From Allosphingosinicella sp. (lineage in GTDB: Bacteria; Pseudomonadota; Alphaproteobacteria; Sphingomonadales; Sphingomonadaceae), in assembly GCF_044225925.1 (NCBI RefSeq), contig NZ_JBGAHY010000020.1: a stretch of 64,000 nucleotides of DNA. One strand, given 5' to 3'. Shown here one piece after another: positions 4,771-17,514 of this stretch. Made by a program: the position numbers and the translations under genes. Positions within the stretch are counted from its first letter, which is position 1; each line of letters begins with the position of its first letter. The notes beneath the pieces are model-generated. The model saw only the letters and a list, made by a program, of their open reading frames with translations, had not been told where the DNA came from and searched no databases.

Positions 4771-5381
4771 TCGAGTTGTCTGACGCCGAGCGGGCCGTCG
4801 AGGCCACCTTGTTCGCCGCCGCCGAGCCGATGAGCGCGACCGATATTGCGCTCTATGTCGGCGAGGGGGTCGATGTGAAGGCGGCGCTCGATACGTTGCA
4901 GGGCCATTATGCCGGGCGCGGCGTGGAGCTGGTGGAGCGGGGCGGGCGCTGGCATTTCCAGACCGCCGCCGATCTCGCCCATATCCTGCGCCGCGAGCGG
5001 GAGGAGAGCCGCAAGCTCAGCCGCGCCGCGGTCGAGACGCTGGCGATCATCGCCTATCACGAGCCGGTCAGCCGCGCCGAGATCGAGGCGATCCGCGGGG
5101 TGCAGATCTCCAAGGGCACGCTGGACGTGCTCATGGAGGCGGGCTGGGTCCGCCCCGCCGGCCGCCGCGAAGTGCCCGGCCGGCCGCTCACTTATGCGAC
5201 CACGCAGGAGTTCCTGTCCCATTTCGGGCTGAAGAGCCGTCGCGACCTGCCCGGAATGGACGATTTGCAGGCGGCGGGCCTGCTCGACCCGGTCGATACG
5301 GCGCTCGAAAGGCTCGGTCTGGGGACCCCGGACGAGGGCGATGACGAGGTCGAACTGGAAACTGACGCCGAAGACGCCTAG
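4767..5381 (+). CDS. scpB: segregation and condensation protein B
   Basis: This is the 3' part of track ORF 3456..5381. The ATG at 4767 overlaps the scpA TGA (ATGA). MIELSDAERAVEATLFAAAEPMS...ETLAIIAYHEPVSRAEIEAIRGV is typical ScpB. Confidence 0.85.
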   Translation: MIELSDAERAVEATLFAAAEPMSATDIALYVGEGVDVKAALDTLQGHYAGRGVELVERGGRWHFQTAADLAHILRREREESRKLSRAAVETLAIIAYHEPVSRAEIEAIRGVQISKGTLDVLMEAGWVRPAGRREVPGRPLTYATTQEFLSHFGLKSRRDLPGMDDLQAAGLLDPVDTALERLGLGTPDEGDDEVELETDAEDA

Positions 5382-5713: not shown

Positions 5714-6262
5714 ATGTTCGGAATCGATTCCGGCGAGCTGCTGATCATCGCGGTCGTCGCCCTGGTGGTGATCGGCCCGAAGGATCTGCCGCGCGTGATG
5801 CGCGGGATCGGCAATTTCGTCGGCAAGGCGCGCGGGATGGCGCGTCATTTCCGCGGCGGCATCGACACGATGATCCGCGAGAGCGAGCTGGCGGACATGG
5901 AGAAGAAGTGGCGGGCGGACAATGAGCGGATCATGCGCGAGCATCCGCTGCTGCCGACGCCCGCTTCGCCCGATGGCCAGCCCGCGCCTGAGGGGAAGTC
6001 GGGGTTCGAGGGCAAACCCATGCCCGAGGGCAAGGAAAGCTGGCCGGCCAAGGACGACTGGTTCGGGACGGACGGGGCGCCGATGGGCGAGCCCTGGCCG
6101 GAGCCGAAGGACCTGCCGCCGCCGCCCCGCCGGGCTGCGCGCGCCAACGACAATCGGCCGAAGCCGCCGCCTCGCCGCCCGAGCGCCGCTGCGGCCGGCG
6201 GTTCAGCCCCGCCCATTCCGAAAGCGACTCCCGCCGCGCCGTCCGGGGATGAGGGCGCATGA
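5714..6262 (+). CDS. tatB: twin-arginine translocase subunit TatB
   Basis: MFGIDSGELLIIAVVALVVIGPKDLPRVMRGIGNFVGKAR, followed by a Pro-rich tail. Confidence 0.9.
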   Translation: MFGIDSGELLIIAVVALVVIGPKDLPRVMRGIGNFVGKARGMARHFRGGIDTMIRESELADMEKKWRADNERIMREHPLLPTPASPDGQPAPEGKSGFEGKPMPEGKESWPAKDDWFGTDGAPMGEPWPEPKDLPPPPRRAARANDNRPKPPPRRPSAAAAGGSAPPIPKATPAAPSGDEGA

Positions 6263-7068
6263 GCGACGCCGATCTCAGGTCCGGCGAGGACGAGGAGCTC
6301 GACAAGAGCAAGGCGCCCTTGCTCGAGCATCTGATCGAGCTGCGCCGCCGCCTGCTCTGGTGCGTGGTGGTGCTCGCCGTCTCCTTCGGCCTCTGCCTGT
6401 GGCAGGCGCGGCCGATCTTCGCGTTCCTCGCCCAGCCTTTGGTGAAGGCGATGGAGAGCATGCCCGGCGGGGCGCGGCTGATCTACACCAGCATTTTCGA
6501 GGCCTTCTTCGCCGAGATCACGGTGGCCTTCTTCGCCGCCCTGATGATCTCCTTCCCGTTCGTCGCGAACCAGATCTGGCGGTTCGTCGCGCCAGGCCTC
6601 TACACGAGGGAGAAGAAGGCGTTCGCGCCCTTCCTGATCCTGACGCCCTTCCTGTTCCTCGCGGGCGCGGCCATGGCTTATTATGTCTGCATGCCGCTCG
6701 CCTTGCATTTCCTGCTTGGCTACCAGGGCAATATCGGCGGCGCGCAGACCGAGGCGCTCCCCGGCATCGGCAATTACCTGACCTTCTGCACCCGCTTCCT
6801 GTTCGGCTTCGGGATCGCCTTCCTGCTGCCGGTGCTGCTGATGCTGCTGGAGGCGGCGGGGCTGGTGACGCGGGCGCAGCTCAAGCGCGGGCGGCGCTAT
6901 GCGATCGTGATCGCCTTCGTGGTGGCGGCGGTGCTGACCCCGCCCGACGTGGTCTCGCAGCTGCTGCTCGCCGTGCCGCTCCTGTTCCTCTACGAATTCT
7001 CGCTGCTCGCCATCTGGTTCACCGAGAAGAAGCGGCGGAAGACGGCGGCGGCGCAGGACGCTTCGTAA
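6259..7068 (+). CDS. tatC: twin-arginine translocase subunit TatC
   Basis: 269-aa polytopic membrane protein. LLEHLIELRRRLLW... is a typical TatC N-terminus. The start overlaps the tatB stop. Confidence 0.9.
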   Translation: MSDADLRSGEDEELDKSKAPLLEHLIELRRRLLWCVVVLAVSFGLCLWQARPIFAFLAQPLVKAMESMPGGARLIYTSIFEAFFAEITVAFFAALMISFPFVANQIWRFVAPGLYTREKKAFAPFLILTPFLFLAGAAMAYYVCMPLALHFLLGYQGNIGGAQTEALPGIGNYLTFCTRFLFGFGIAFLLPVLLMLLEAAGLVTRAQLKRGRRYAIVIAFVVAAVLTPPDVVSQLLLAVPLLFLYEFSLLAIWFTEKKRRKTAAAQDAS

Positions 7069-7072
7069 AAAA

Positions 7073-7092
7073 GAGGCGCCCGAAGGCGCCTC
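7073..7092. terminator. GC hairpin between convergent tatC and the entericidin gene
   Basis: gaggcgcc-cgaa-ggcgcctc: perfect 8-bp stem, preceded by aaaaa. Confidence 0.55.
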
Positions 7093-7117: not shown

Positions 7118-7243
7118 TCAGGTGGCGCGATCGACCGCATTGGCCGCGGACTCGATGTCCCGGCCGGCGCCGCGCACAGTGTTGCAGGCCGCGGTGGCGA
7201 CGATGCAGGTCGACAGCGCCAGTATCGCGAACAGCTTCTTCAT
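7118..7243 (-). CDS. entericidin EcnA/B-family small lipoprotein
   Basis: 41 aa: MKKLFAILALSTCIVATAACNTVRGAGRDIESAANAVDRAT. AGGAGG lies 6 nt upstream of the ATG at 7243. The track ORF 7118..7504 is an over-extension. Confidence 0.8.
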   Translation of the reverse strand: MKKLFAILALSTCIVATAACNTVRGAGRDIESAANAVDRAT

Positions 7244-7394
7244 CAGATCCTCCTGAACCGGAGGCCGGTCTCGGGCGCCGGCCTGTTGATTCAGGTAAAT
7301 GTCCGCCCTTCGGATCGGTTCCCCCGGGCGCGACAGGCCGAAACGATCCGCGCCGAAGCGAGCGGTGTACCGTGGAAGCCAGGCGGGGAGCCCC

Positions 7395-7497
7395 AAAAAT
7401 TTTGAGCCCGGACGCGCTACCGGGGGGGGGAGGTTGGCGCGTCCGGGCTCATGTTCTGGATAGCGAGAGCGGGGGGGCAAAAGGTCACTATCCAAGT
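7395..7497 (-). ncRNA. candidate EcfG-dependent small RNA (GsrN-like), about 100 nt
   Basis: It lies directly downstream of a perfect GGAAC-N16-CGTT motif. Stem-loop 1 spans 7494-7457 (UUGGAUAG/CUAUCCAG, loop with a C7 run). Stem-loop 2 spans 7450-7404 (perfect 14-bp stem GAGCCCGGACGCGC/GCGCGUCCGGGCUC, 19-nt loop with a C9 run) and is followed by AAAAUUUUU. No convincing ORF. Confidence 0.5.
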
Positions 7498-7502
7498 CGC
7501 TC

Positions 7503-7527
7503 AACGAGGCCGGGGGGCGTTGGTTCC
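7503..7527 (-). promoter_or_regulatory. EcfG (ECF15)-type promoter motif GGAAC-N16-CGTT
   Basis: Minus strand: GGAAC (7527-7523), 16-nt spacer, CGTT (7506-7503). It sits in the ecn / lipoprotein intergenic region. Confidence 0.5.
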
Positions 7528-7639
7528 GTCATTCCGAGTCTTTTTTCGCAGGGGCGAAATTTTTCCGCCGCCTGTGGCGATGGCTTGCCTGCGGGGCCGA
7601 AAGGGGAGAGGCTGGCCGCTCCAGAAGGGGGGAGCGATC

Positions 7640-8197
7640 ATGAGGACCTTTATCTTCCTGGCCGGCGCGGCGGCGCTGCTGGCTGGCTGCAACAAGGATG
7701 CGGAGAAGCAGACGGCAGAGGGCATGGTCCGGGCGGCCCTGGTCGGCCAGGGCACCGTGCAAGCGATCAATCTCAGCAAGCAGTCCGACAACAATTATGC
7801 CGGCACCGCGACGCTCCGCACGCCGGACGGTCGGACGGTGACGCTCAATTGCACGGCGCGTCGTACCGGCCCCGATTCGAACGCCAATTTCAGCGCCAGT
7901 TGCGGGCAGGTACTGGACCAGGCCCTGCTCGACGAAATCAAGGGTCTGATGCGCCAGGCGCTCGAGCGGCAGGGAGCCACCGTGGTGCAGCTCGAACTGA
8001 CCAAGCAGGACGAGGATCATGCCACCGGCTCCGGCGAGATTCGCGATCCGGCGGGGCAGACAGTGCATCTGACCTGCAGCGCGACACGGCAGGACAATGG
8101 CCGCTTCAACCCGCAATGCGACCCGGTCGGGGACGCTCAGCCGGCAGCCGCACCCGCCGCGGGCGAGCAGGAAGCGCCCGCGGAAAACGCCCAGTAA
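7640..8197 (+). CDS. hypothetical lipoprotein
   Basis: The ATG at 7640 is preceded by GGGGGGAG. MRTFIFLAGAAALLAGC lipobox. The upstream part of the track ORF (7451..) is not signal-like. Confidence 0.6.
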   Translation: MRTFIFLAGAAALLAGCNKDAEKQTAEGMVRAALVGQGTVQAINLSKQSDNNYAGTATLRTPDGRTVTLNCTARRTGPDSNANFSASCGQVLDQALLDEIKGLMRQALERQGATVVQLELTKQDEDHATGSGEIRDPAGQTVHLTCSATRQDNGRFNPQCDPVGDAQPAAAPAAGEQEAPAENAQ

Positions 8198-8204
8198 CGT
8201 CCGT

Positions 8205-9617
8205 TCAGCCCGCCAGGCGGCGGATCATGTCGGTCCAGTGGTCCACGTCGTCATAGAAGGCGCGGACCGGCAGCCGTTCGTCCCGGCCATGCGCGCGCTC
8301 GTCGGCGGGGATCACCGCCCATGAGCCGTCCACGCCATAGACCGGCACGCCGCGCGCGCGGAAATAGAGTCCGTCCGTGGCGCCGGTGCTCATGTCCGGG
8401 GTGACCGCGCCATTCGGATGGCGGGCGCGCACCGCAGCGGTATAGGCGCCGACGACGTCCGGCCGGAGCGGCGAGGCGTCGGTGGGATGGGCCGGGTCGA
8501 CCGGCTCCACGCCGACGTTGTCAGGCTGGCCGAGTTGGCGGAGCGTGGCGAGCACGCTGGCCGGATCGACGCCCGGGAAGATCCGGCAATTGACCGTCGA
8601 GCGGGCGAGCTGCGGCAGGGCATTGTCGGCATGGCCGCCCTCCAGCCTGGTCGCGACGCAGCGGGTGCGGGTCAACCCGACCTCCGTGTCCGTCGCCTCG
8701 ATCGCGTCGGCGGCGGCCCCGTCATTCGGGTTGGCGAGCCAGCGCCGGATCAGGCCGGCAAGCTCGGGGCTCGCCGATTCCGCGCGATGGGTGAAATAGG
8801 CGCGGGTGGTGTCGTTCTGCATCGGCTCGAAGCGGAAATGCTCCAGCCGCTCCAGCGTATGGGCGAGCGCGTAGATCGCATTGTCCGGCCGCGGGCGAGA
8901 GCTGTGGCCGCCCGGATTGGTCGCGGTCAGATAATAGCTCTGATAGGTCTTCTCCGCAGTCTGGATGCCGAAGCCGAGCAGCCGCCCGTCGGGCAGGAAA
9001 GCGCCGCCGCCGGCATCGGCGTTCAGTGCGAAATCGAGCGTCGAGGTGTCGATCCATTGCGTCGAAGCCAGTTCCGCGCCGCGCCCGCCCGTCTCCTCGT
9101 CGCCGGTAAACAGGACGACGATGTCGCGGGTCGGGCGGAAACCCTCGGCGCGCAGCCGCAGCAAGGCCGCGGTGACGGAGACGACGCCCTGCTTGTCGTC
9201 CATCGTGCCGCGCCCGTAGAAATAATTGTCCACCTCGCCGAGCTGGAAGGGATCGCGTGACCAGTCGGCGCGCCGCGCCTCGACCACGTCCATATGCGCC
9301 ATGATCAGGATCGCCTTGCGGCCCGACGGCCGTGCCGCCGGCCAGCGCAGGATCAAGGCCGCGGTATGATCGTCCGGGCGCACCACATCATAAGGGTGGA
9401 TGGTGACGCCATCGAGCCCGCCGGCGCGAAACTGCTCCTGCAGATATTGGGCCAGCGCCGGCACCTGGCCGCGGCCCTGCACGGTCGGAATGGAGATGGC
9501 ATGCTCGTAGATCTCGCGCGCCTTGGCGTGCCAGCGGTCAGGCGGCGGGGTCTGGGCCGACGCCACGGAGGAGGTGACGAGGCCAAGGGCGGTGGCGGCG
9601 AGCAAGGCGAGGCGCAT
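8205..9617 (-). CDS. M20/M25/M40 family metallopeptidase, secreted
   Basis: Start re-picked at MRLALLAATALGLVTSSVASAQ (signal peptide). Motifs: MAHMDVV and GRGTMDDKQG metal-binding. The track ORF to 10505 runs into the neighbouring kinase gene. Confidence 0.8.
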   Translation of the reverse strand: MRLALLAATALGLVTSSVASAQTPPPDRWHAKAREIYEHAISIPTVQGRGQVPALAQYLQEQFRAGGLDGVTIHPYDVVRPDDHTAALILRWPAARPSGRKAILIMAHMDVVEARRADWSRDPFQLGEVDNYFYGRGTMDDKQGVVSVTAALLRLRAEGFRPTRDIVVLFTGDEETGGRGAELASTQWIDTSTLDFALNADAGGGAFLPDGRLLGFGIQTAEKTYQSYYLTATNPGGHSSRPRPDNAIYALAHTLERLEHFRFEPMQNDTTRAYFTHRAESASPELAGLIRRWLANPNDGAAADAIEATDTEVGLTRTRCVATRLEGGHADNALPQLARSTVNCRIFPGVDPASVLATLRQLGQPDNVGVEPVDPAHPTDASPLRPDVVGAYTAAVRARHPNGAVTPDMSTGATDGLYFRARGVPVYGVDGSWAVIPADERAHGRDERLPVRAFYDDVDHWTDMIRRLAG

Positions 9618-9667: not shown

Positions 9668-11269
9668 TCAAGCTGTCGCGGCCCCCGTCTGTTCGATGAT
9701 GGCGAGCCGCACCGCGTAGAAGCCGCGCTCCGGCTCGCGCTCCAGCTCGGAGCGGAGCTGGCGGGCGAGCCCGATGACGATCCGCTCGAACCGTTCCCTG
9801 AAGGCCGCGTCGCACTCGGGCGCGCCGGCCAGCGCATCGATCTGGATGGAGAGGCGGGCGAAGCCGGGGCCGTCCCGGTCCAGCGCGACCGAGACCAGGC
9901 CGGCGCTGCAGATCATGCCGAATTCCGCGATTTCGGTGATCAGGAAGGCGACGGAGACAGCGACATCTTGGGTGACGTAGAGCGGGTCGATATCGAGCCG
10001 CATCTGCATCCCCGCCGCACTTGCCGGCGCGGTGGCGCGCAGATTGGCGGTCAACTCGTTGATCAAGGGTTTCAGCGCGACCCCGCGACTTTCCTCCAGC
10101 TCCGCATAATGGTTGCGGTGGACGACCGCGAGCGCGTCGACCCGGCGCTGGATCGAGGCGTAGGCGGCGGCGACGTCCTCGTTGCGCGCGCCCCGCGCAT
10201 GCAGGTTGAGCAAAGAGGCGACGACCTGGAGATTGTTCTTCACCCGGTGATGGACCTCGCGGACCAGCCGGGTCTGGCGGACGACGGCGGCCTCCAGGTC
10301 CGCCTCGTGCCGCGCCACGGTGTGCGTGACGCGGGAAAAGGCCTCGCCGAGCGCGCCGATCTCCTGCGCAGTGCTGTTCACGGCCGGCAGATCGACCGCC
10401 GGATCGCCCGGCTTGTAGGCTGAAATGATGTTCTGGATGCGCTTCAGCGGCCGGAGCAGCACCCGCTGCACGATCAGCCAGCCGATGAAGGAGGCCCAGA
10501 GCCACATCAGGACCGGCGTCAGCATGATGAAGATCTCGTTCGGCCCGACCGGCGGCATGGGGAGCCGGATGCGGAGGGAATATTGGCCGGCCGCGAAGGC
10601 GTTGCTCTCGGTGACCTGATCGCCGCGCTCGCCCGCCGGCGACATTGAGCGCAGCGGCATCACCCGGTCGCCCTGGACCAGCTCCAATGCAAAATCGCCG
10701 GGCAGCCGCGGATCGTCGACAGCGCGCGCCAGCGTCTCCCGGCTATATTCGGTGATGCCCTCGATCGTGCCGTCGGGCTCGTAGAGGAAGATGTCGAGGC
10801 GCGTGCCGCCGGACATGATGAGCGCCCGGGCCGGCTCGCCGCCCGCGGCCGGGATTGCCGGCGGGGCGAAGCCCAGACTCAGGCAGGGCTGCGCGGGATC
10901 GCGCCCGTAAATGGCGAAGCGGCCGGGCACGTTCGGAAAGCGGCCAAGCCGACCCAAAGTGCGCAGGCAGATGCCGCGCGTGTCGCCGACCGTGTCGCCG
11001 AATTCCAGCACCGCGTCGCGGCCGGAGCGGATGGTGAAGGCGTTGCGCGACAAAGCGAGCGTGAAGCGCTGCACATGCCGGGCGAGCAGCGACTGCGCCT
11101 CGGTGCGCGCGGTTTCGCGATTGGCGCGCGCGTTGTTCACCGACGCCACCACGGCGATCACCCCCAGCGGCAGCAAGCCGAGGCTGAGGATGATCCACAT
11201 TTTGAGGCCGGTAGAGAGTCGGTCCCAGCGGGGGCCCGCGGGCGCTTGCTCGGTTTCAGCGCGTGCCAT
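9668..11269 (-). CDS. GSR-locus sensor histidine kinase (HisKA_2 type, PhyK/PhyP-like)
   Basis: Two N-terminal TM segments flank a periplasmic region. H-box EVHHRVKNNLQVVASLLNLH. It starts 9 nt after the nepR stop. Confidence 0.8.
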   Translation of the reverse strand: MARAETEQAPAGPRWDRLSTGLKMWIILSLGLLPLGVIAVVASVNNARANRETARTEAQSLLARHVQRFTLALSRNAFTIRSGRDAVLEFGDTVGDTRGICLRTLGRLGRFPNVPGRFAIYGRDPAQPCLSLGFAPPAIPAAGGEPARALIMSGGTRLDIFLYEPDGTIEGITEYSRETLARAVDDPRLPGDFALELVQGDRVMPLRSMSPAGERGDQVTESNAFAAGQYSLRIRLPMPPVGPNEIFIMLTPVLMWLWASFIGWLIVQRVLLRPLKRIQNIISAYKPGDPAVDLPAVNSTAQEIGALGEAFSRVTHTVARHEADLEAAVVRQTRLVREVHHRVKNNLQVVASLLNLHARGARNEDVAAAYASIQRRVDALAVVHRNHYAELEESRGVALKPLINELTANLRATAPASAAGMQMRLDIDPLYVTQDVAVSVAFLITEIAEFGMICSAGLVSVALDRDGPGFARLSIQIDALAGAPECDAAFRERFERIVIGLARQLRSELEREPERGFYAVRLAIIEQTGAATA

Positions 11270-11278
11270 GCGGCGGCG

Positions 11279-11443
11279 CTAGTCGAGCTTTCCAAGCAAG
11301 GCGAGCAAATCCGCAGGGATTTGCTCTTTCAGTGTATCGTCATAGGCAGCCTTCAGCGCATTGCCGACGTCGCCGCCTGGCGCGCGCCGGCGGGGCTTTT
11401 TGTCCTGGGATTTGGCAGGGGGTTTCGCGTCGGAATCGGACAA
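11279..11443 (-). CDS. nepR: NepR-family anti-sigma factor
   Basis: The C-terminus DVGNALKAAYDDTLKEQIPADLLALLGKLD matches the NepR signature. Start chosen at the TTG at 11443 with GGGAGGG upstream; the start is uncertain. The rest of track ORF 11279..11893 is an extension. Confidence 0.7.
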   Translation of the reverse strand: MSDSDAKPPAKSQDKKPRRRAPGGDVGNALKAAYDDTLKEQIPADLLALLGKLD

Positions 11444-11571
11444 GATTGAACCACCCTCCCACGGCACGGCACGCGCTGCCGGCCTATCGGTTATTGTCAG
11501 CACAGCCGCCCCAATCACATTCGGACAAAAAATAGCGCGGCCCCGGATAAATGAGACCGCACGGGCATGGA

Positions 11572-11715: not shown

Positions 11716-12510
11716 ATGTCGCTTGGCCAGGAACTCGCGCCGCACCTTCCCTTTCTCCGCCGCTATGCCCGCGCGCTGACCGGCAGCCAGGCGCATGGCG
11801 ACGCCTTCGTCCGCGCGACGCTGGAGGCGATCGTCGCCGCGCCGGGCGATTTCCCGCGCGACGTCGATCCGCGGCTCGGCCTCTACCGGACATTCCACGC
11901 CATCTGGTCCTCCGCCAATGTCGAGGAGGAGCCGGGCCATGCCGACACTGGCGGGCCGGAGGATATCGCCCGTGCCCGGCTGTCGCAGATTACGCCGCTG
12001 TCCCGCCAGGCTTTGTTGCTTACCGCAATGGAGGGCTTCACCCCCGAGGATGCCGGCTATCTGATCGAGGCATCGGCCGATGAGGTGGAGAATCTGGTCG
12101 CCGAGGCGCTGGCCGAGATCGAGCGCCAGACCCGCGCCGACGTCCTGATCATCGAGGATGAGCCGATCATCGCGATGGATATCGAGACGATCGTCCGCGA
12201 TCTCGGTCATAATGTCACCGGCGTCGCCGTCACGCGGGACGAAGCGGTCGCTCAGGCGATGGCGCACCGGCCCGGCCTGGTGCTGGCCGACATCCAGCTC
12301 GCCGACGACAGCTCCGGCATCGACGCGGTGAAGGACATCCTCGCCGAATTCTCCGTGCCGGTGATCTTCATCACCGCCTTCCCGGAACGGCTGCTGACCG
12401 GGGAGCGGCCGGAGCCGACCTTCCTGATCACCAAGCCGTTCCAGCGTTCGACGGTGAAGGCGCAGATCGCCCAGGCCTTGTTCTTCGATACGGCGACCGT
12501 GCCGGCCTGA
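11716..12510 (+). CDS. phyR: anti-anti-sigma response regulator PhyR
   Basis: N-terminal sigma-like domain (LPFLRRYARALTGSQAHGDAFV...) plus a C-terminal receiver (DVLIIEDEPIIAMDIE...LVLADIQLADDSSGIDAV...TKPF). Confidence 0.9.
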   Translation: MSLGQELAPHLPFLRRYARALTGSQAHGDAFVRATLEAIVAAPGDFPRDVDPRLGLYRTFHAIWSSANVEEEPGHADTGGPEDIARARLSQITPLSRQALLLTAMEGFTPEDAGYLIEASADEVENLVAEALAEIERQTRADVLIIEDEPIIAMDIETIVRDLGHNVTGVAVTRDEAVAQAMAHRPGLVLADIQLADDSSGIDAVKDILAEFSVPVIFITAFPERLLTGERPEPTFLITKPFQRSTVKAQIAQALFFDTATVPA

Positions 12511-12551
12511 GCGAGTTTAGCGACGGTTCGAGGCGGGCTGGGATAAGACAG

Positions 12552-12577
12552 GGAACCCGTTTGGTGGCGGGGGCGTT
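12552..12577 (+). promoter_or_regulatory. EcfG-type promoter motif GGAAC-N17-CGTT
   Basis: GGAAC 12552-12556, CGTT 12574-12577, about 38 nt upstream of the small ORF that precedes ecfG. Confidence 0.55.
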
Positions 12578-12615
12578 GCTCCCCGTAACGAATGGAACCC
12601 GAGTCAGGACCAGTG

Positions 12616-12753
12616 ATGAGCGACCATCGCGAACATATCAGCACGACCGACGCCCGTGCCGGCAGTACGCCGCACATGACGCGCTATATATTGGGCTTCG
12701 GCCTGGTGCTCGTCATCGCGGCATTCATCGCGATTGTGCTTCTCTGGAAGTAA
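12616..12753 (+). CDS. small single-pass membrane protein (45 aa)
   Basis: Below the ORF-track size cutoff. MSDHREHISTTDARAGSTPHMTRYILGFGLVLVIAAFIAIVLLWK: one clear TM segment. Located between phyR and ecfG, behind an EcfG-type promoter. Confidence 0.45.
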   Translation: MSDHREHISTTDARAGSTPHMTRYILGFGLVLVIAAFIAIVLLWK

Positions 12754-12826
12754 TCCCATCTTCAGCGCCAGGCCGCGTCCCGATTCTGGGAGATGCGGCC
12801 CGCGCTTGGCATTCAGGGGCAGATTG

Positions 12827-13504
12827 ATGGCGGGCGAAACGCCGGCAAAGAGTGGAGTTGCGGAGCCGGGAGCCGAATGGCACCCGCTGCCCGACGACGA
12901 ATTCAAGGAACAGCTGGCGCTGGTCATCCCCCATTTGCGCGCCTTCGGCCGCTCGCTCTCCGGTAGCCGGGACCTTGCCGACGATCTCGTCCAGGAAACC
13001 CTGCTGAAGGCCTGGGCGGCGCGCAGGCGCTTCCAGGCCGGCACCAACATGCGGGCCTGGACCTTCATCATCCTGAGGAACCTGTTCCTCAGCCAGATGC
13101 GCCGCGCCCGCTTCAAGGGCGAATGGGATGAGTTGACCGCCTCCAAATTGCTCGCTGCGCCGGCCAGCCAGGACAAGCATATCGAGCTTGGCGACATGCA
13201 GCGCGCCTTGCTGCATCTGCCGCAGCCGCAGCGCGAGGCGCTGATCCTCGTGGGCGCCGGCGGCTTCGCCTATGAGGAAGCGGCCGAGATTTGCGGCTGC
13301 GCGGTCGGCACGATCAAGAGCCGGGTCGCCCGCGGCCGGGTCGCGCTCGAGGCGCTGCTCACAGACGGCAAACTGCCGTCGCGCCGCAGCCATCATACGC
13401 CTGGAGACAAGGGCGCGCTGCAGACGATCATGGATGAGGTGGCCGATCTCAGCCGCGATCGCGATTTCGGCCCGGACGACGACGTGGAAGACGCCGCCGC
13501 CTAA
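12827..13504 (+). CDS. ecfG: ECF sigma factor, EcfG-like
   Basis: ATG at 12827 inside track ORF 12734..13504. Region 2 DLVQETLLKAWAARRRFQAGTNMRAWTFIILRNLF; region 4 QREALILVGAGGFAYEEAAEICGCAVGTIKSRVARGR. Confidence 0.8.
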   Translation: MAGETPAKSGVAEPGAEWHPLPDDEFKEQLALVIPHLRAFGRSLSGSRDLADDLVQETLLKAWAARRRFQAGTNMRAWTFIILRNLFLSQMRRARFKGEWDELTASKLLAAPASQDKHIELGDMQRALLHLPQPQREALILVGAGGFAYEEAAEICGCAVGTIKSRVARGRVALEALLTDGKLPSRRSHHTPGDKGALQTIMDEVADLSRDRDFGPDDDVEDAAA

Positions 13505-13698
13505 TCGAGCTGGCGCAGCAAATCCTCGAACGGCTGCAGCGAACGGATCTGCCCGTCCATCCGGAAGGCCCGACGCAAGGCATTGCCCACGCCGGCATGG
13601 ACAGTGGGCGCGGCCACCTTCACATACCTACGCGGTTGAATTTCGCCCTGCGGCTTCATCTGACTATCCAGCTCCTTCACAACGGGACTAACGTGCAT
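13501..13698 (-). CDS. second NepR-like small protein
   Basis: The C-terminus GVGNALRRAFRMDGQIRSLQPFEDLLRQLD has the same skeleton as NepR (VGxALxxA[YF]...LLxxLD). The stop codon overlaps the ecfG stop (convergent). The start (13698 or further downstream) is uncertain. Confidence 0.45.
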   Translation of the reverse strand: MHVSPVVKELDSQMKPQGEIQPRRYVKVAAPTVHAGVGNALRRAFRMDGQIRSLQPFEDLLRQLD

Positions 13699-13757
13699 TT
13701 GCCCGCCGGGTTTCAATTGTTGCGCGGGCGGCGCGGGGAAGAGCAGCAACCTGTTGT

Positions 13758-16451
13758 ATGGAAGACCCAATTCCTGATCCGGATTTCAAGGGCGCGATCG
13801 CGCGGGCGCGGGCGGGCTCGCCCTTCCTGACCTTCCTCCTCGACAGCCTGCCGGGCAGCGCCGCCGCGCTCGCCGCCGGCGATCTCGACGCCGCCTTCGC
13901 CGCGGCGCGGGCCGCTGGCGAGGCCGCGGATGTGATGACGGCGGTGCGGCGGGAGCGGAGCGCGCTGGCGCTGGCGCTCGGCATCGGCGATCTCGCTGGC
14001 GCGCTCAGCCTGGAGCAGGTGGTGCGGCCGCTCTCCGATCTTGCCGACCGTCAACTGGAGCGGGCGCTGGCCGCTGCCTTTGCCGAGCGGACGCCGGCGG
14101 AGCCCGCTCTGGGGTTCGCCATCCTCGCGCTCGGCAAGCTCGGCGGGCGCGAGCTCAATTATTCCTCCGACCTCGATCTGATCTTTCTCTACGATCCCGA
14201 AACCCTGCCGCTGCGCCCGCGCGAGGAAGCGGGACAGGCGGCGGTCAGGATCGGCCAACGGGTGGTCGAGATCCTGCAGAAGCGGACCGAGGCCGGCTAT
14301 GCCTTCCGCATCGACCTCAGGCTGCGCCCGTCGCCCGAAGTGACCCCGCTTGCCCTGCCCGTGGAAGCGGCGATCTCCTATTATGAAAGCGCGGCCTTGC
14401 CCTGGGAGCGGGCGGCCTTCATCCGCGCGCGCCTTGCCGCCGGAGATCCGAAGCTGGGCCAGGAGTTTCTCGACACCATTCACCCCTTCGTCTGGCGGCG
14501 CTCGCTCGATTTCGGCGCCATCCGGGAAATCAGCGCGATCAGCCGGCGGATCCGCGACCATTATGCGCAAGGCCAGGCCTTCGGCCCCGGCTTCGACCTG
14601 AAGCGCGGGCGCGGCGGCATCCGCGAGATCGAGTTCTTCGTGCAGATCCATCAGCTCATCCATGGCGGGCGCGAGCCGGAGCTGCGCTCGGCGAGCACGG
14701 TGAGCGCATTGGCGGCGCTGGCGGGGGCCGGGCGGATCGGGGCGGAGGACGCCGCGGCGCTGGACAATGCCTATCGATTGCTCCGCACGATCGAACATCG
14801 GCTGCAGATGGTCGACGACCGGCAGACGCACAGCCTCCCCGCCGATCCCGGCGCGCTCGATAATGTCGCCCGGCTGCACGGGCTGACGGATGGTGGCGCC
14901 TTGCTCGATCTGCTCCGCCCCGCGGTCGATCGCGACGCTGCGATCTACGACACCTTGGTCGAGGAGGAAGAGGTCAGGCTGCCGGAAGATCCGGCGGCGC
15001 TGGATGCGGCGCTGGCCGCAGCGGGCTTTTCGGATGCGGCGCTGGCGCGGTCGCGGATCGAGGGCTGGCGGGGCGGCAAGATCCGCTCGCTGCGCAGCGC
15101 CGCCGCTCTGTCGGCGTTCGAGGCGATGCTGCCTGGGCTGATCGAGGCGCTTGGCGTCGCGCCCGATCCGATCGCTGCGATGCACCGCTTCGAGGATTTG
15201 ATCATGGGCCTGCCGAGCGGGGTCAATTTCTACCGCCTGCTGGAGGCGCGGCCGGGCCTGACCCAGCATCTCGCCACGATCCTGAGCCACGCGCCGGCGC
15301 TCGCGGGGCAGCTTGGCCGCCGGCCGGAATTGCTGGACGGGCTGATCGACGCCAGTGCGCTCGAGCCGGTGCCACCGGTCGCGGAACTGGCCGCGCGCTT
15401 CGGCCGGGCGGACGGAGCGGGTGAGGATTATGAGCGCGTGCTCGACCGGGTCCGCCGCCGGGTCAACGAGACCCGCTTCGCGCTGGGCGCGCAGGTCGTG
15501 CTCGGCGCCAGCGACCCGATCGAGGTGAGCCGCGGCTATGCCCGCGTCGCCGAAGCCGCGATCCAGGTGCTGGCCGACGCCACGATCGCGGAATTCGAGA
15601 AGGTGCACGGCCGCGTGCCCGGCGCGCGGCTGGTCATTCTCGGCCTTGGCCGGTTGGGTGGCGCGGCCCTGACTCACGCGTCGGATCTTGACCTCATCTA
15701 TCTCTTCTCCGGCAGTCACGAGGCGGAGTCGGACGGGGCGAAGCCGCTCCGGGCGAGCGACTATTTCAACCGGCTCGCGCCGCGCATCACCGCCGCACTG
15801 TCGGTGCCGACCGCGGCGGGGCGACTCTACGAGGTGGACACCAGGCTCCGGCCCTCAGGCAGCGACGGCCTGCTCGCCATCTCGCTCGACACTTTCGCCG
15901 ATTATCAGCGCGAGAAGGCCTGGACGTTCGAGCATATGGCCCTGTGCCGCGCGCGGCCGGTCTATGGCAGCGAGGCGGACCGAGCGGCGCTGCAAGGAAT
16001 CATCGACGCAGTGCTGCGGTTGCCGCGCGACCCGGCGAGGGTTGCGGAGGATGCGGAGCGGATGCGGCTCGAAATCGCGCGGCACAAGAAGCCGAAGGGC
16101 GAGTTCGACATCAAGCTGACCCCCGGCGGGTTGGTCGATCTCGAATTCGCGGTGCAGACGCTGCAGCTTTCGCACCATGCCGCGCTGGCCCCGCGGCTGG
16201 TGGACGCGGTGGCGGGGCTGATCGAGGCTGGCCTGATGCCCCCCGAACTCGCACGGCACCACGCCTTGCTGGCCCGGATGCTGGTCGTCCTGCGCCTCGT
16301 CGCGCCCGACGGCGAGGAACCTCCGCCCGCTTCGCGCGATCTTGTTGCCAGGGCCAGTGGGACAGGTGGCTGGGAGGAACTGCTTGCGGCGCACAAGGCG
16401 GCGCGGCAAACCATCAACTCCCTCTGGCGAAAGGTGGCGGAGTCGCGCTGA
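13758..16451 (+). CDS. glnE: bifunctional glutamine synthetase adenylyltransferase/adenylyl-removing enzyme
   Basis: 897 aa with duplicated nucleotidyltransferase modules (LGKLGGRELNYSSDLDLIFLYD and LGRLGGAALTHASDLDLIYLF). Confidence 0.9.
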   Translation: MEDPIPDPDFKGAIARARAGSPFLTFLLDSLPGSAAALAAGDLDAAFAAARAAGEAADVMTAVRRERSALALALGIGDLAGALSLEQVVRPLSDLADRQLERALAAAFAERTPAEPALGFAILALGKLGGRELNYSSDLDLIFLYDPETLPLRPREEAGQAAVRIGQRVVEILQKRTEAGYAFRIDLRLRPSPEVTPLALPVEAAISYYESAALPWERAAFIRARLAAGDPKLGQEFLDTIHPFVWRRSLDFGAIREISAISRRIRDHYAQGQAFGPGFDLKRGRGGIREIEFFVQIHQLIHGGREPELRSASTVSALAALAGAGRIGAEDAAALDNAYRLLRTIEHRLQMVDDRQTHSLPADPGALDNVARLHGLTDGGALLDLLRPAVDRDAAIYDTLVEEEEVRLPEDPAALDAALAAAGFSDAALARSRIEGWRGGKIRSLRSAAALSAFEAMLPGLIEALGVAPDPIAAMHRFEDLIMGLPSGVNFYRLLEARPGLTQHLATILSHAPALAGQLGRRPELLDGLIDASALEPVPPVAELAARFGRADGAGEDYERVLDRVRRRVNETRFALGAQVVLGASDPIEVSRGYARVAEAAIQVLADATIAEFEKVHGRVPGARLVILGLGRLGGAALTHASDLDLIYLFSGSHEAESDGAKPLRASDYFNRLAPRITAALSVPTAAGRLYEVDTRLRPSGSDGLLAISLDTFADYQREKAWTFEHMALCRARPVYGSEADRAALQGIIDAVLRLPRDPARVAEDAERMRLEIARHKKPKGEFDIKLTPGGLVDLEFAVQTLQLSHHAALAPRLVDAVAGLIEAGLMPPELARHHALLARMLVVLRLVAPDGEEPPPASRDLVARASGTGGWEELLAAHKAARQTINSLWRKVAESR

Positions 16452-16915: not shown

Positions 16916-17514
16916 CCGCCGGGGCGGACAGGGGAACGGGTCGCGCGCGCCGGGGTTTTTTCGCCATGTTCGCCGCCCGTCCCAGCCGCCTCGCTTTGAC
17001 CTCGATCGGAGTCGTCGCCGCGGCGATCATTGGCGTGCAGCTTGGTCAGTCGGCCATTTCCGAGATCAACCCGGTTCATTTCCAGGGTCCGCTGGCGCCG
17101 CAGGCGATCACGCCGCCGCCGGAACCCGCGCCCTACAACCCCTATGCCCAGCAATATACCTGGTCGATGGGTGCCTCGCCGTCCGCGGCGGATTGCCGAC
17201 CGGATTGCGATCGCGATCGGGCGCAGCAGGCGATGCGCCTCGCGCTCGACGATGCGGCTGGACGGGATCCCGCGCTGCCCCCCTGGCGCGACGCGACGCC
17301 AACCACCCAGCTGCAGCCCTGGGCGCCGGGCGCGGTGGTCAGTGGCCGCACCTTCGAGCGCTATATGCATTATCCGGTGGACCGCGAGCAGGCGGAGCAT
17401 CCGATGCCCCAACCGGCCGCTGCGTCCGCGCCCGCTGCCGCGACGCCTGCCGAAGCGCTCCGCGTGCCGCCCGCTGCCGAGCCGGCCCCGGCCCAGCCGG
17501 TCATCCAGGAATAA
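16912..17514 (+). CDS. hypothetical membrane-anchored Pro-rich protein
   Basis: The GTG overlaps the bcp stop (GTGA); an alternative ATG lies at 16966. TM segment LALTSIGVVAAAIIGV. No family recognised. Confidence 0.45.
   Translation: MTAGADRGTGRARRGFFAMFAARPSRLALTSIGVVAAAIIGVQLGQSAISEINPVHFQGPLAPQAITPPPEPAPYNPYAQQYTWSMGASPSAADCRPDCDRDRAQQAMRLALDDAAGRDPALPPWRDATPTTQLQPWAPGAVVSGRTFERYMHYPVDREQAEHPMPQPAAASAPAAATPAEALRVPPAAEPAPAQPVIQE

What the first reader, a model, noticed from the sequence alone, without database searches (positions are those of the whole stretch)
7395..7527. Candidate EcfG-dependent small RNA with two C-rich loops (GsrN-like)
In the 400-nt gap between the entericidin gene and a lipoprotein gene, the minus strand carries a perfect EcfG/ECF15-type promoter, GGAAC-N16-CGTT (7527-7503). 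About 8 nt downstream comes an 8-bp stem-loop (7494-7457) whose 24-nt loop holds a C7 run. A perfect 14-bp GC-rich stem follows (7450-7404), whose 19-nt loop holds a C9 run, and then AAAAUUUUU. That is the layout of a roughly 100-nt terminator-bounded sRNA. Caulobacter GsrN is a sigma-T (EcfG)-dependent sRNA that acts through an exposed cytosine-rich loop and is encoded near the GSR locus. Here the GSR locus starts only about 2 kb away. The C-runs are complementary to G-rich Shine-Dalgarno regions, for example GGGGGGAG in front of the adjacent lipoprotein gene at 7627-7634. One caveat: a split 9-nt motif is expected by chance roughly once in a window of this size on two strands, so the promoter motif alone is weak. 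The argument rests on motif, intergenic position and two hairpins together. The homopolymeric C9/G9 tract could also be length-variable.
Basis: partly seen in the sequence, partly recalled or inferred. Interest (0 to 1): 0.7.

Follow-up and report, generated by a model that had tools for sequence, protein, structure and literature searches.

The report
Stress-sigma small RNA with C-rich loops
This is very probably a roughly 100-base regulatory RNA gene switched on by the general-stress sigma factor EcfG. It sits in or next to the stress-response gene cluster of many Sphingomonas-type bacteria, resembles Caulobacter GsrN in design but not in sequence, and I found no earlier description of it.

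Summary
On the minus strand a perfect EcfG promoter (GGAAC-N16-CGTT, 7527-7503) lies 9 nt before a 10-bp hairpin (7494-7457; 18-nt loop with C7). A 14/15-bp terminator hairpin follows (7451-7403; C9 loop) and a U5 tail ends at 7395.

- **Conservation.** The element occurs once per locus in 43 of 45 tatC-anchored genomes, in about 116 of 120 metagenome contigs that share the loop-1 18-mer, and in named genomes (Allosphingosinicella humi and Sphingomonas hengshuiensis, abietis, tabacisoli).
- **Promoter.** All 133 copies with enough upstream sequence carry GGAAC-N16/17-NGTT. The -10 box ends 9 nt before hairpin 1 in 128 of them.
- **Structure.** 20 of 29 base pairs show compensatory changes (0 of 500 shuffles reach this). 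Both C tracts are predicted to be unpaired.
- **Position.** It is nearly always the last unit of nepR-HWE kinase, opposite phyR-ecfG and facing tatC.

The best reading is an EcfG-dependent trans-acting sRNA that pairs with G-rich mRNA sites. It works like GsrN but has no sequence similarity to it. It is absent from Rfam 15 and from the literature I could search. Expression, the 5' end and targets are untested, and the suggested lipoprotein target is not supported.

The parts
7523..7527 (-). -35 box GGAAC of the sRNA promoter
   Evidence: Present in all 133 homologous copies that have at least 50 nt of upstream sequence.
7503..7506 (-). -10 box CGTT of the sRNA promoter, 16 nt after the -35 box
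   Evidence: CGTT in 128 of 133 copies, GGTT in 4, TGTT in 1. These variants were shown to work with EcfG in vitro in Sphingopyxis granuli TFA (PMC7083833).
7395..7494 (-). Predicted sRNA of about 100 nt. The 5' end at 7494/7493 is inferred, and the 3' end is placed after the U5 tail.
   Evidence: The -10 box ends 9 nt before hairpin 1 in 128 of 133 copies. GsrN has the same 9-nt offset to its mapped +1 (derived). Covariance model R1 scores the window copy at 108.7 bits, E = 4.6e-22.
7457..7494 (-). Hairpin 1: 10-bp stem (7494-7485 with 7466-7457)
   Evidence: 7 of 10 pairs show compensatory changes in alignment A2, and 95% of cells are paired.
7467..7484 (-). Loop 1, CCUUUUGCCCCCCCGCUC, with C7 at 7471-7477. 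This is the candidate seed region.
   Evidence: Nearly invariant in the 40 tatC-anchored copies, with only 1-nt indels. Mean unpaired probability of the C tract is 0.88.
7403..7451 (-). Hairpin 2, the intrinsic terminator: 14/15-bp GC-rich stem
   Evidence: 13 of 19 pairs show compensatory changes in A2.
7418..7436 (-). Loop 2, CAACCUCCCCCCCCCGGUA, with C9 at 7422-7430. This is the second candidate seed, and its length is polymorphic.
   Evidence: A C tract of 6-14 (mode 10) is present in all copies. Its length differs among otherwise identical sRNAs. Unpaired probability is 0.99.
7395..7399 (-). U5 tail of the terminator
   Evidence: A run of at least 3 T is present in the tail of 57 of 88 variants.
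7298..7322 (-). Separate EcfG-type promoter, GGAAC-N16-CATT, of the downstream entericidin gene. It is a neighbour, not part of the sRNA.
   Evidence: Conserved in front of all 21 downstream ecn genes found and in 5 named genomes. CATT is a validated EcfG -10 variant.
7118..7243 (-). Entericidin (ecnAB-type) lipoprotein gene, the next transcription unit on the same strand
   Evidence: Pfam Entericidin at 20.8 bits, below the 23.3 cut-off. Called as Entericidin in named genomes.
9668..11470 (-). nepR (11279-11470) and the HWE/HisKA_2 histidine kinase (9668-11269). In most relatives the sRNA directly follows this operon.
   Evidence: Pfam and synteny.
11716..13504 (+). phyR (11716-12510), EcfG promoter (12552-12577), 45-aa ORF (12616-12753) and ecfG (12827-13504)
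   Evidence: Pfam and the promoter match.

Best explanation
The region 7494-7395 (minus strand) is an independent gene for a small regulatory RNA of about 100 nt. [quoted passage not shown]

Proposed mechanism:
1. Under stress, phosphorylated PhyR captures NepR and frees the sigma factor EcfG.
2. EcfG-RNA polymerase starts transcription about 9 nt after the consensus promoter GGAAC-N16-CGTT.
3. The transcript begins directly with hairpin 1 and ends at hairpin 2, an intrinsic terminator.
4. Each hairpin displays a single-stranded cytosine tract: C7 in the invariant 18-nt loop 1, and C6-C14 in the terminator loop.
5. These tracts pair with G-rich stretches in mRNA leaders or Shine-Dalgarno regions elsewhere in the genome and change translation or stability. 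This gives the GSR a post-transcriptional arm, as GsrN does in Caulobacter.

Shown here by comparative sequence analysis: the promoter, the two helices, the exposed C tracts, single copy per locus, and placement in or next to the GSR locus.

Inferred only: transcription, EcfG dependence, the 5' and 3' ends, trans-action, and the identity and direction of target regulation.

I put about 0.85 on 'EcfG-driven sRNA gene' and about 0.6 on 'acts by C-loop pairing with G-rich mRNA sites'.
For: **Promoter.**
- The perfect EcfG motif occurs only here and in front of ecfG in the window.
- All 133 homologous copies with enough upstream sequence carry GGAAC-N16/17-NGTT (128 CGTT, 4 GGTT, 1 TGTT). The -10 box ends 9 nt before hairpin 1 in 128 of them.
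- In the N16 promoter class most spacer positions are only 32-60% conserved.
- The metagenome copies were selected only by the loop-1 18-mer, not by the promoter.
- CGTT gave optimal EcfG transcription in vitro in another sphingomonad, and CATT, TGTT and GGTT also work (PMC7083833).

**Structure.**
- z = -6.1 for the window copy.
- In 88 distinct variants, 92.7% of cells are paired. The figure is 32-41% when partners are slid by 1-3 columns.
- 20 of 29 pairs have compensatory changes (100 cells), and 0 of 500 shuffles reach these values.
- The C tracts have unpaired probability 0.88 and 0.99.

**Gene-like behaviour.**
- There is one copy per locus. It was found in 43 of 45 tatC-anchored loci, 3 of them cut by contig ends.
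- It is present in A. humi, S. hengshuiensis, S. abietis and S. tabacisoli.

**Position.**
- In nearly all loci it lies 70-130 nt after the stop of the HWE kinase of the nepR-kinase operon, opposite phyR-ecfG and convergent with tatC.
- In most lineages no gene follows on the same strand. Where ecn follows, it has its own GGAAC-N16/17-CATT promoter. So this is not a leader.
- In the window's lineage, a lipoprotein gene and an M20 peptidase gene separate the sRNA from the kinase. The sRNA has kept its own promoter there.

**Precedent.** GsrN has a sigma-T/EcfG promoter, a 5' C-rich loop and G-rich targets (PMC5869019).
Against: - No expression data of any kind could be consulted.
- In 31 of 88 variants the tail after hairpin 2 lacks a run of at least 3 T, so termination at that point is not assured.
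- Base-pair counts hardly separate the two strands: 92.7% paired on this strand against 90.9% on the other. The strand call therefore rests on the promoter, the T-rich tail and the C-rich (not G-rich) loops.
- No target was found. No conserved complementary site of 10 nt or more exists in about 1.3 Mb of neighbouring sequence.
- In this GC-rich window, duplex energies with translation start regions barely differ from random windows (-16.8 against -15.4 kcal/mol for loop 1, and -15.5 against -14.0 for loop 2).
- Complete invariance of the 18-nt loop 1 across genera is more than a C-tract seed needs. It could mean a protein or a structured partner binds there.
- Loop-1 invariance in the metagenome set is circular, because that set was selected by the loop sequence.
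Confidence: 0.72

Rival explanations
1. It is a cis-acting end or leader element rather than a trans-acting sRNA. Hairpin 2 would simply terminate the nepR-kinase operon and, in the other direction, tatC. Alternatively the whole unit would be a terminator/attenuator leader controlling read-through into the entericidin gene.
For: In most relatives the element starts 70-130 nt after the kinase stop, and its hairpin 2 abuts the convergent tatC stop. In the window and many Sphingomonas lineages, ecn follows about 150-250 nt downstream on the same strand.
Against: - A plain terminator needs no promoter of its own. Here a consensus EcfG promoter at a fixed 9-nt distance is conserved in 133 of 133 copies.
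- A terminator also needs no invariant 18-nt loop or conserved first hairpin.
- ecn is absent in the majority of lineages (Sphingomicrobium). Where present it always has its own GGAAC-N16/17-CATT promoter between the terminator and the gene.
- In the window's lineage the element is detached from the kinase operon by two inserted genes and is still intact.
Confidence: 0.08
2. It is an EcfG-induced RNA that acts by binding a protein or by acting as a sponge, not by pairing with mRNAs. The invariant loop 1 would be a protein recognition site or a decoy.
For: All 18 nt of loop 1 are conserved across genera whose TatC proteins are only about 60% identical, which is more than a short seed needs. No convincing mRNA partner was found.
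Against: - Exposed C-rich loops that pair with G-rich mRNA sites are a recurrent, experimentally supported sRNA design. Examples are GsrN (PMC5869019) and the 6C and sX13 papers listed.
- Only 64 kb of the host genome could be searched for targets, so the failure to find one carries little weight.
- No candidate partner protein is encoded next to the element in a conserved way.
Confidence: 0.1
3. It is a true, highly diverged ortholog of Caulobacter GsrN (common descent), not an independent analogue.
For: - The same promoter type and the same 9-nt distance from CGTT to the 5' end.
- In both RNAs the transcript starts with the 5' arm of a hairpin.
- A GCCCCCC tract starts at about +15 to +18 in both.
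- Both are linked to the GSR locus in most genomes.
Against: The local alignment score of 15 equals the mean of shuffled sequences (15.6-16.0). At least 616 of 1000 shuffles score as well. The architectures also differ. GsrN has a long 5' stem with an internal C-rich loop plus a separate small terminator. Here there are two simple hairpins, and the terminator loop also carries a C tract. Homology can be neither shown nor excluded with sequences this short.
Confidence: 0.25
4. It encodes a small peptide from the AUG in the linker (AUG at 7452-7450; MSPDAPTSPPR in the window).
For: ATG is present at that place in 72 of 88 variants.
Against: The ATG is missing in 16 of 88 variants. No Shine-Dalgarno sequence lies upstream. 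The reading frame after the variable C tract changes between close relatives (PPPGGA, PPPVAL, PPRWRF), and most versions have no stop codon within the RNA.
Confidence: 0.02

Closest known systems
GsrN (CCNA_R0081) of Caulobacter crescentus and its Caulobacteraceae homologs (Tien et al. 2018, PMC5869019)
   Same: - It is transcribed from a GGAAC-N16-CGTT (sigma-T/EcfG) promoter.
- It is about 100 nt long.
- The 5' end starts a hairpin that exposes a cytosine tract.
- It is usually encoded next to ecfG-nepR-phyR.
- It belongs to the GSR regulon (sequence).
   Different: - There is no detectable sequence similarity.
- GsrN's C tract lies in an internal or multibranch loop of a long 5' stem, and its terminator loop is a plain tetraloop. 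Here two simple hairpins each carry a C tract, one of them in the terminator loop.
- BLASTn homologs of GsrN were limited to Caulobacteraceae, and the authors saw no gsrN-like gene in the sphingomonad Erythrobacter litoralis.
- Processing, Hfq dependence and katG activation are unknown here.
6C RNA of Actinobacteria (M. tuberculosis 6C/B11; PMC6486639, listed)
   Same: Two hairpins whose loops each carry a run of six or more cytosines. The paper's title reports binding of multiple mRNA targets via C-rich loops independent of RNA chaperones. The host genomes are high in GC.
   Different: It comes from an unrelated phylum. No Rfam match to 6C appeared even at E up to 10. 6C is not known to me as an ECF-sigma-dependent gene (own knowledge). 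The resemblance is convergent.
Cuckoo RNAs: alpha-r14 / NfeR1 (Rfam RF02344) and CcsR1-4 / RSs0680 (PMC4615179)
   Same: These are alphaproteobacterial, stress-induced sRNAs built of 2-4 adjacent hairpins with anti-Shine-Dalgarno C-rich loops. Loop 2 here (CCUCCCCCC) differs from CCUCCUCCC by one base. RF02344 was the best, though weak, Rfam hit.
   Different: - The score is 21.9 bits against a gathering score of 58.8. The alignment also uses the promoter DNA as its first 'hairpin'.
- Loop 1 has no CCUCC motif.
- The cuckoo paper (PMC4615179) describes homologs in Rhodobacterales and Rhizobiales and does not mention sphingomonads.
- CcsR RNAs depend on RpoHI/HII, not EcfG (own knowledge).
RepG of Helicobacter pylori (own knowledge: Pernitzsch et al. 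2014, not consulted here)
   Same: The C/U-rich loop of the terminator hairpin is the seed and pairs with a homopolymeric G tract. A length-variable homopolymer tunes the interaction.
   Different: In RepG the variable tract is in the target mRNA (tlpB leader). Here the variable C tract is in the sRNA itself. The lineages and regulators are unrelated.
Sigma-E-dependent sRNAs MicA, RybB and MicL of enterobacteria (summarised in PMC8103513)
   Same: The concept is the same: an ECF sigma factor gains a post-transcriptional arm through sRNAs with strong sigma-dependent promoters. MicL, like this RNA in most relatives, is made from its own promoter at the 3' end of another gene (own knowledge).
   Different: The sigma factor group, the promoter motif and the seed chemistry all differ. 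Those seeds are 5' single-stranded rather than C-rich loops.
SuhB sRNA of Sphingopyxis granuli TFA (10.64898/2025.12.09.693200)
   Same: [quoted passage not shown] Its deletion sensitises cells to the same stresses as loss of EcfG.
   Different: SuhB is activated by a LysR-type regulator, and its regulon is largely independent of the GSR. No Rfam suhB match was found at this element.

Membership tests
GsrN / GsrN-like sRNAs (criteria of Tien et al. 2018) | [quoted passage not shown] | tested here: met
   Window 7527-7503. Present in 133 of 133 homologous copies.
GsrN / GsrN-like sRNAs (criteria of Tien et al. 2018) | Proximity to the ecfG-nepR-phyR locus | tested here: met
   2.1 kb from the HWE kinase in the window. 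In most relatives it lies directly after the nepR-kinase operon. Exceptions are L095, L154 and L156.
GsrN / GsrN-like sRNAs (criteria of Tien et al. 2018) | Exposed cytosine-rich loop in the 5' part of the RNA | tested here: met
   The loop-1 C7 tract has predicted unpaired probability 0.88 in 88 variants. The supporting stem covaries. This rests on prediction, not probing.
GsrN / GsrN-like sRNAs (criteria of Tien et al. 2018) | Sequence homology to C. crescentus GsrN (BLASTn) | tested here: not met
   Only 7-nt GCCCCCC matches (E = 0.93). The local alignment score is no better than shuffles.
GsrN / GsrN-like sRNAs (criteria of Tien et al. 2018) | Intergenic transcription that depends on the GSR; Hfq-stabilised; processed to a stable 5' isoform; activates katG | not testable with these tools
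   No transcriptome or genetic data were available.
Rfam RF02344 alpha-r14 / cuckoo RNA family | Score at or above the Rfam gathering threshold | tested here: not met
   21.9 bits against 58.8. The alignment spans promoter DNA. No hit in 10 other members.
Rfam RF02344 alpha-r14 / cuckoo RNA family | CCUCCUCCC motif in every hairpin loop | tested here: not met
   Loop 1 is CCUUUUGCCCCCCCGCUC. Loop 2 is CCUC(6-14), one mismatch from the motif.
Rfam RF02344 alpha-r14 / cuckoo RNA family | 2-4 adjacent hairpins of similar size | tested here: met
   Two adjacent hairpins.
6C RNA (Actinobacteria) | Two hairpins, each with a loop of at least six cytosines | tested here: met
   C7 and C9 in the window. 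C7/8 and C6-14 in relatives.
6C RNA (Actinobacteria) | Match to the Rfam 6C covariance model | tested here: not met
   No 6C hit at E up to 10 in the window region or at E up to 1 in 10 members.
Any Rfam 15 family | Gathering-score match anywhere in the window | tested here: not met
   0 matches in 64 kb.
Intrinsic (Rho-independent) terminator | GC-rich stem followed by a U tract | tested here: met
   The window has a 14-bp stem plus U5. The U tract is weak or interrupted in 31 of 88 relatives. The simple terminator scan missed it because its loop exceeds 8 nt.

The most novel reading that the evidence does not exclude
The homopolymeric C tract in the terminator loop may be a contingency tract carried by the sRNA itself. 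It ranges from 6 to 14 C and differs among otherwise identical sRNA sequences. Slippage would change its length within populations and so retune, or switch, which G-rich mRNAs the stress sRNA can reach. That would be phase-variable riboregulation located on the regulator rather than on the target, the mirror image of RepG/tlpB.
Probability: 0.1. Interest if true: 0.8.

Novelty: new member of a known kind. Interest (0 to 1): 0.6.

Why it matters
The alphaproteobacterial general stress response is studied mostly at the level of its PhyR-NepR-EcfG protein switch. Caulobacter GsrN showed that much of the protective output can run through a single sRNA. The paper that described GsrN found sequence homologs only in Caulobacteraceae and saw no gsrN-like gene in a sphingomonad.

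Here a different, very strongly conserved sRNA gene sits inside the GSR locus of many Sphingomonadaceae. It was found in Allosphingosinicella, Sphingomicrobium and several named Sphingomonas species, and it is abundant in soil and rhizosphere metagenomes.

If it is expressed as predicted, it has three consequences:
- Transcriptome-based GSR regulons that counted only coding genes are incomplete. An example is the 104 coding genes reported for Sphingopyxis.
- Sphingomonas stress, phyllosphere and desiccation phenotypes gain a concrete post-transcriptional candidate.
- It offers a second, independent example for asking whether a C-rich-loop sRNA is an ancestral or a recurrently invented part of the EcfG module.

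It is directly testable in culturable, sequenced strains.

Tried and rejected
1. **Rfam.** No gathering-level match in the window. With permissive E-values, only a weak alpha-r14 hit appeared, and it aligns promoter DNA. Nothing matched at the element in 10 other members.
2. **Plasmids.** No similar sequence in PLSDB.
3. **GsrN homology.** The sequence was taken from the paper's gene-block table. Similarity is no better than shuffles.
4. **SuhB of Sphingopyxis.** Its regulator and regulon are different.
5. **Target prediction.**
   - RNAduplex of both loops against 56 crude translation start regions of the window gave distributions almost equal to random windows. The lipoprotein ranked 4th.
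   - An exact-complement search over all fetched loci found only the antisense of the element itself and scattered 10-11-mers.
   - The lipoprotein Shine-Dalgarno sequence is G-rich in most but not all relatives, and the gene exists only in the window's lineage.
   - I therefore dropped this as a specific claim.
6. **Leader-of-entericidin idea.** Rejected because ecn has its own conserved promoter and is absent in most lineages.
7. **Small-ORF idea.** Rejected.
8. **Strand assignment from wobble pairs.** Not decisive: 92.7% against 90.9%.
9. **Taxonomy of the odd-context copies L095 and L154.** The nearest named homologs of the L095 nuclease are about 60% identical and come from Sphingomonas and Caulobacteraceae MAGs.
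10. **Reaching S. melonis Fr1.** I used the PDB chain 2lfw PhyR domain as query. Only the PDB sequence itself came back at 100% identity. The closest genome-borne relative (85%; L173, a noisy long-read assembly) does carry the element. L172 does not, but that locus has no GSR synteny.
11. One script call returned nothing and was repeated in two parts.
Full report
**1. What is in the window**

- The promoter is GGAAC (7527-7523), a 16-nt spacer, then CGTT (7506-7503).
- Nine nucleotides later a hairpin begins. Its 5' arm is 7494-7485 and its 3' arm is 7466-7457. That makes 10 bp including one U-G pair.
- The loop is 18 nt, CCUUUUGCCCCCCCGCUC, with C7 at 7477-7471.
- After a 5-nt linker comes a perfect 14-bp GC-rich stem (7450-7437 with 7417-7404), or 15 bp with U7451-A7403.
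- Its 19-nt loop contains an inner ACC/GGU helix and an apical U+C9 loop (C9 = 7430-7422). AAAAUUUUU follows and ends at 7395.

The 108-nt stretch folds at -50.2 kcal/mol against -30.6 +/- 3.2 for shuffles (z = -6.1).

**2. Is the promoter motif meaningful here?**

Alone, it is not. Two perfect GGAAC-N15-17-CGTT matches occur where 1.0 is expected. But the other match (12552-12577, +) lies in front of a 45-aa ORF and the ECF sigma gene, which is the classic autoregulated position. Relaxed matches lie in front of nepR and phyR.

Pfam confirms the neighbours:
- TatC (6259-7068)
- an entericidin-type gene (7243-7118, weak hit)
- a lipoprotein (7640-8197)
- an M20 peptidase
- a HisKA_2/HWE kinase (9668-11269)
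- NepR
- PhyR (11716-12510)
- an ECF sigma factor (12827-13504)

**3. Conservation, first set (anchored on TatC, independent of the RNA)**

A scan of species-representative genomes with TatC gave 45 loci from Allosphingosinicella, Sphingomicrobium and related MAGs. TatC identity to the window was 61-83%.

The element is present on the strand opposite to tatC in 40 complete and 3 contig-truncated copies. It could not be assessed in 2 loci, whose contigs end before it. It is absent in 1 locus, L006.

The promoter boxes are identical while the spacer differs. Hairpin 1 and its loop are almost invariant, and the hairpin 2 stem differs between clades by paired changes. A covariance model built from these 40 sequences finds exactly one copy per locus and one in the 64-kb window. 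The next-best hits are the antisense of the same site.

**4. Conservation, second set (anchored only on the loop-1 18-mer)**

Four are not intact copies: three look like chance matches (L067, L123, L155), and L056 lacks the 5' arm of hairpin 1 at a contig end. The rest are the same gene with much more diverse stems.

Pooling both sets gives the following.
- All 133 copies with at least 50 nt upstream carry GGAAC-N16/17-NGTT (128 CGTT, 4 GGTT, 1 TGTT).
- In 128 of them the -10 box ends exactly 9 nt before hairpin 1.
- In the N16 class most spacer positions are only 32-60% conserved.

The promoter was not part of the search pattern, so this is an independent test. In Sphingopyxis granuli TFA, in vitro transcription showed CGTT to be the optimal EcfG -10 box and TGTT, CATT and GGTT to be functional variants (PMC7083833).

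**5. Secondary structure**

I tested 88 distinct sequences aligned with MAFFT.
- The two-hairpin structure pairs 92.7% of cells. Sliding the partners by 1-3 columns gives 32-41%.
- 20 of 29 pairs show compensatory changes (100 cells), against 2.5-9 pairs in the controls. None of 500 shuffles reach the observed values.
- Examples in hairpin 1: GGACGGUGA/UCACCGUCC (L062), GGAUCGCGA/UCGCGAUCC (L154), GGACAGCGA/UCGCUGUCC (L092).
- The C tracts are predicted to be unpaired in all 88 variants, with mean probability 0.88 and 0.99.

Caveats: loop-1 invariance in the metagenome set is by construction. Base-pair counts do not discriminate strands (92.7% against 90.9%). The strand follows from the promoter, the T-rich tail and the C-rich loops.

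**6. Genomic position**

tblastn of the window's proteins against all loci shows one dominant arrangement:

ecfG <- 45-aa ORF <- phyR | nepR -> HWE kinase -> sRNA (-> ecn in some) | <- tatC <- tatB

- The sRNA starts 70-130 nt after the kinase stop. S. sediminicola is worked out.
- The window's lineage (also L046, L127, L139, L163) has a lipoprotein gene and an M20 peptidase gene inserted between the kinase and the sRNA. This explains the 2.1-kb distance and shows that the sRNA keeps its own promoter when it is detached from the operon.
- Three contigs (L095, L154, L156) carry a copy outside any recognisable GSR locus. [quoted passage not shown]

**7. Taxonomic range**

The PhyR proteins of divergent metagenome loci fall into 90%-identity clusters with named species. 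These include S. tabacisoli, S. chungangi, S. abietis, S. oryzagri, S. morindae, S. yantingensis, S. kyeonggiensis and S. hengshuiensis.

I fetched the GSR loci of named genomes and searched them with the model.
- S. hengshuiensis CP010836.1: 100.5 bits
- S. abietis CP115174.1: 84.6 bits
- S. tabacisoli: 100.7 bits
- Allosphingosinicella humi: 103.3 bits
- A contig carrying the S. yantingensis-type PhyR: 85.6 bits

All hits lie between the kinase and ecn, and all have GGAAC-N16-CGTT. S. hengshuiensis has AU instead of CC at the 5' edge of loop 1, so the loop is not absolutely fixed.

I could not reach S. melonis Fr1. The closest available relative of its PhyR domain (85% identity; L173) carries the element. 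Whether Erythrobacteraceae, Sphingopyxis, Novosphingobium or Zymomonas have it is unknown.

**8. What it is not**

- **Not an ecn leader.** ecn is missing in most lineages. All 21 ecn genes detected downstream of the element, and those in 5 named genomes, have their own conserved GGAAC-N16/17-CATT promoter between the terminator and the gene. In the window this promoter is at 7322-7298.
- **Not a peptide gene.** The linker ATG is absent in 16 of 88 variants, and the frame after the C tract is not conserved.
- **Not a known RNA family.** Rfam 15 gives nothing at gathering level. A weak alpha-r14 hit (21.9 against 58.8 bits) aligns promoter DNA, and 10 other members hit nothing.
- **Not on plasmids**.

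**9. Relation to GsrN**

[quoted passage not shown] They found BLASTn homologs only in Caulobacteraceae and noted no apparent gsrN-like gene in Erythrobacter litoralis.

All three sequence-based criteria are met here. Sequence homology is not. With the GsrN sequence recovered from their supplement, the local alignment score is 15 and shuffles average 15.6-16.0.

Two details are shared.
- GsrN's mapped +1, deduced from primer coordinates, is the 9th nucleotide after CGTT. That is the same offset at which hairpin 1 starts here.
- In both RNAs a GCCCCCC tract begins at about +15 to +18.

I therefore file it as 'works like GsrN'. Its membership by descent is open, and I give that rival 0.25.

**10. 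Mechanism**

- **Shown comparatively:** promoter, structure, exposed C tracts, single copy, linkage to the GSR locus.
- **Inferred:** EcfG-dependent transcription under stress, a 5' end at 7494/7493, termination at hairpin 2, and trans-pairing of the C tracts with G-rich leader or Shine-Dalgarno sequences.

Precedents for C-loop seeds are GsrN, 6C and sX13, cuckoo RNAs and RepG (own knowledge).

Targets could not be identified.
- Start-region duplex energies in the window are hardly better than background. For loop 1 they are -16.8 against -15.4 kcal/mol, and for loop 2 -15.5 against -14.0.
- No conserved complementary site exists in the fetched loci.
- The complete conservation of the 18-nt loop 1 hints at an extended interaction or a protein partner, which I keep as a 0.1 rival.

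**11. The C tract of loop 2**

Its length ranges from 6 to 14 with a mode of 10. It differs among sRNAs that are otherwise identical. In the window's own sequence type it is 9, 9, 10 and 12, and in the closely related CCGACCU type it is 8, 8, 9, 10, 11 and 11. Loop 1 is C7 in 38 of the 40 tatC-anchored copies.

Several contigs end at or just after the tract, so assembly or sequencing error contributes. Real hypervariability remains possible, and it is the most novel reading I cannot exclude.

**12. Literature**

Full-text searches used these terms: GsrN; EcfG + sRNA + Sphingomon*; general stress response + S. melonis + small RNA; S. melonis + EcfG + RNA-seq; and EcfG/sRNA/C-rich. None found a description of an EcfG-dependent sRNA in Sphingomonadales. 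The Sphingopyxis regulon paper counted coding genes only. The library lacks most subscription-journal papers, so prior description elsewhere cannot be excluded.

**13. Verdict**

The element is a robust, widely conserved candidate sRNA gene of the GSR regulon in Sphingomonadaceae. It is a new member of the known kind 'ECF-sigma-dependent sRNA with C-rich seed loops'. Interest is 0.6. The result is not surprising in principle, because such sRNAs were predicted. But it is unusually well supported, sits in a model-relevant clade where none was known, and can be tested at once.

Noticed in passing
window 7298-7322 (-), upstream of the entericidin gene 7243-7118 (-): The entericidin gene has its own EcfG-type promoter, GGAAC-N16-CATT. 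The same promoter, with variable spacer sequence, precedes all 21 downstream ecn genes found in relatives and those in 5 named genomes. The minus strand therefore carries two tandem GSR transcription units.
   Followed up: yes
window 12616-12753 (+), behind the promoter at 12552-12577: A conserved 45-aa ORF with one predicted transmembrane helix (MSDHREHISTTDARAGSTPHMTRYILGFGLVLVIAAFIAIVLLWK) lies between phyR and ecfG, directly behind the perfect EcfG promoter. It is present in the related loci where the promoter was found and is called as a 45-aa gene in four of the five fetched genome loci that carry the sRNA. It has no Pfam family. It may be an unstudied membrane component of the GSR module.
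   Followed up: partly
window 13501-13770 (-), convergent with ecfG: A small ORF ends in ...ALRRAFRMDGQIRSLQPFEDLLRQLD, which resembles the C-terminal NepR motif (compare nepR: ...ALKAAYDDTLKEQIPADLLALLGKLD). A 48-77-aa gene is called at the same place in the named genomes. It has no Pfam hit. It may be a second NepR-like anti-sigma factor.
   Followed up: partly
window 7640-9560 (lipoprotein on +, M20 peptidase on -): These two genes are an insertion specific to the window's lineage (also L046, L127, L139, L163), between the HWE kinase and the sRNA. In most relatives the sRNA follows the kinase stop by 70-130 nt.
   Followed up: yes
window 7073-7092 (-): A strong 8-bp GC hairpin followed by T6 sits after the entericidin gene, 5 nt beyond the tatC stop codon (7068) on the other strand. 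It probably terminates ecn. In Sphingomicrobium, which lacks ecn, the sRNA's own hairpin 2 occupies this position against tatC.
   Followed up: partly
L095 13045-13149 (+); L154 2900-3004 (+); L156 about 5115-5219 (+): These three metagenome contigs carry the sRNA with an EcfG promoter but without any GSR gene nearby. The neighbours are an S1/P1 nuclease and a HAD hydrolase in L095, and a topoisomerase IB, MscS and a Rieske oxygenase in L154. L095 has the most divergent stems. Its host is unidentified: the nearest named homologs of its nuclease are about 60% identical and come from Sphingomonas and Caulobacteraceae MAGs.
   Followed up: partly
L047, L049, L070, L111, L145, L156 (contig ends): Several metagenome contigs stop at or just after the loop-2 poly-C tract, or show scrambled sequence right after it. 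The homopolymer disturbs assembly, which limits how far tract-length differences can be trusted.
   Followed up: no
window 16933-16957 (+): A further EcfG-like motif, GGAACGGGTCGCGCGCGCCGGGGTT (-10 box GGTT), lies just downstream of the AhpC/Redoxin-type gene region. I did not examine what follows it.
   Followed up: no
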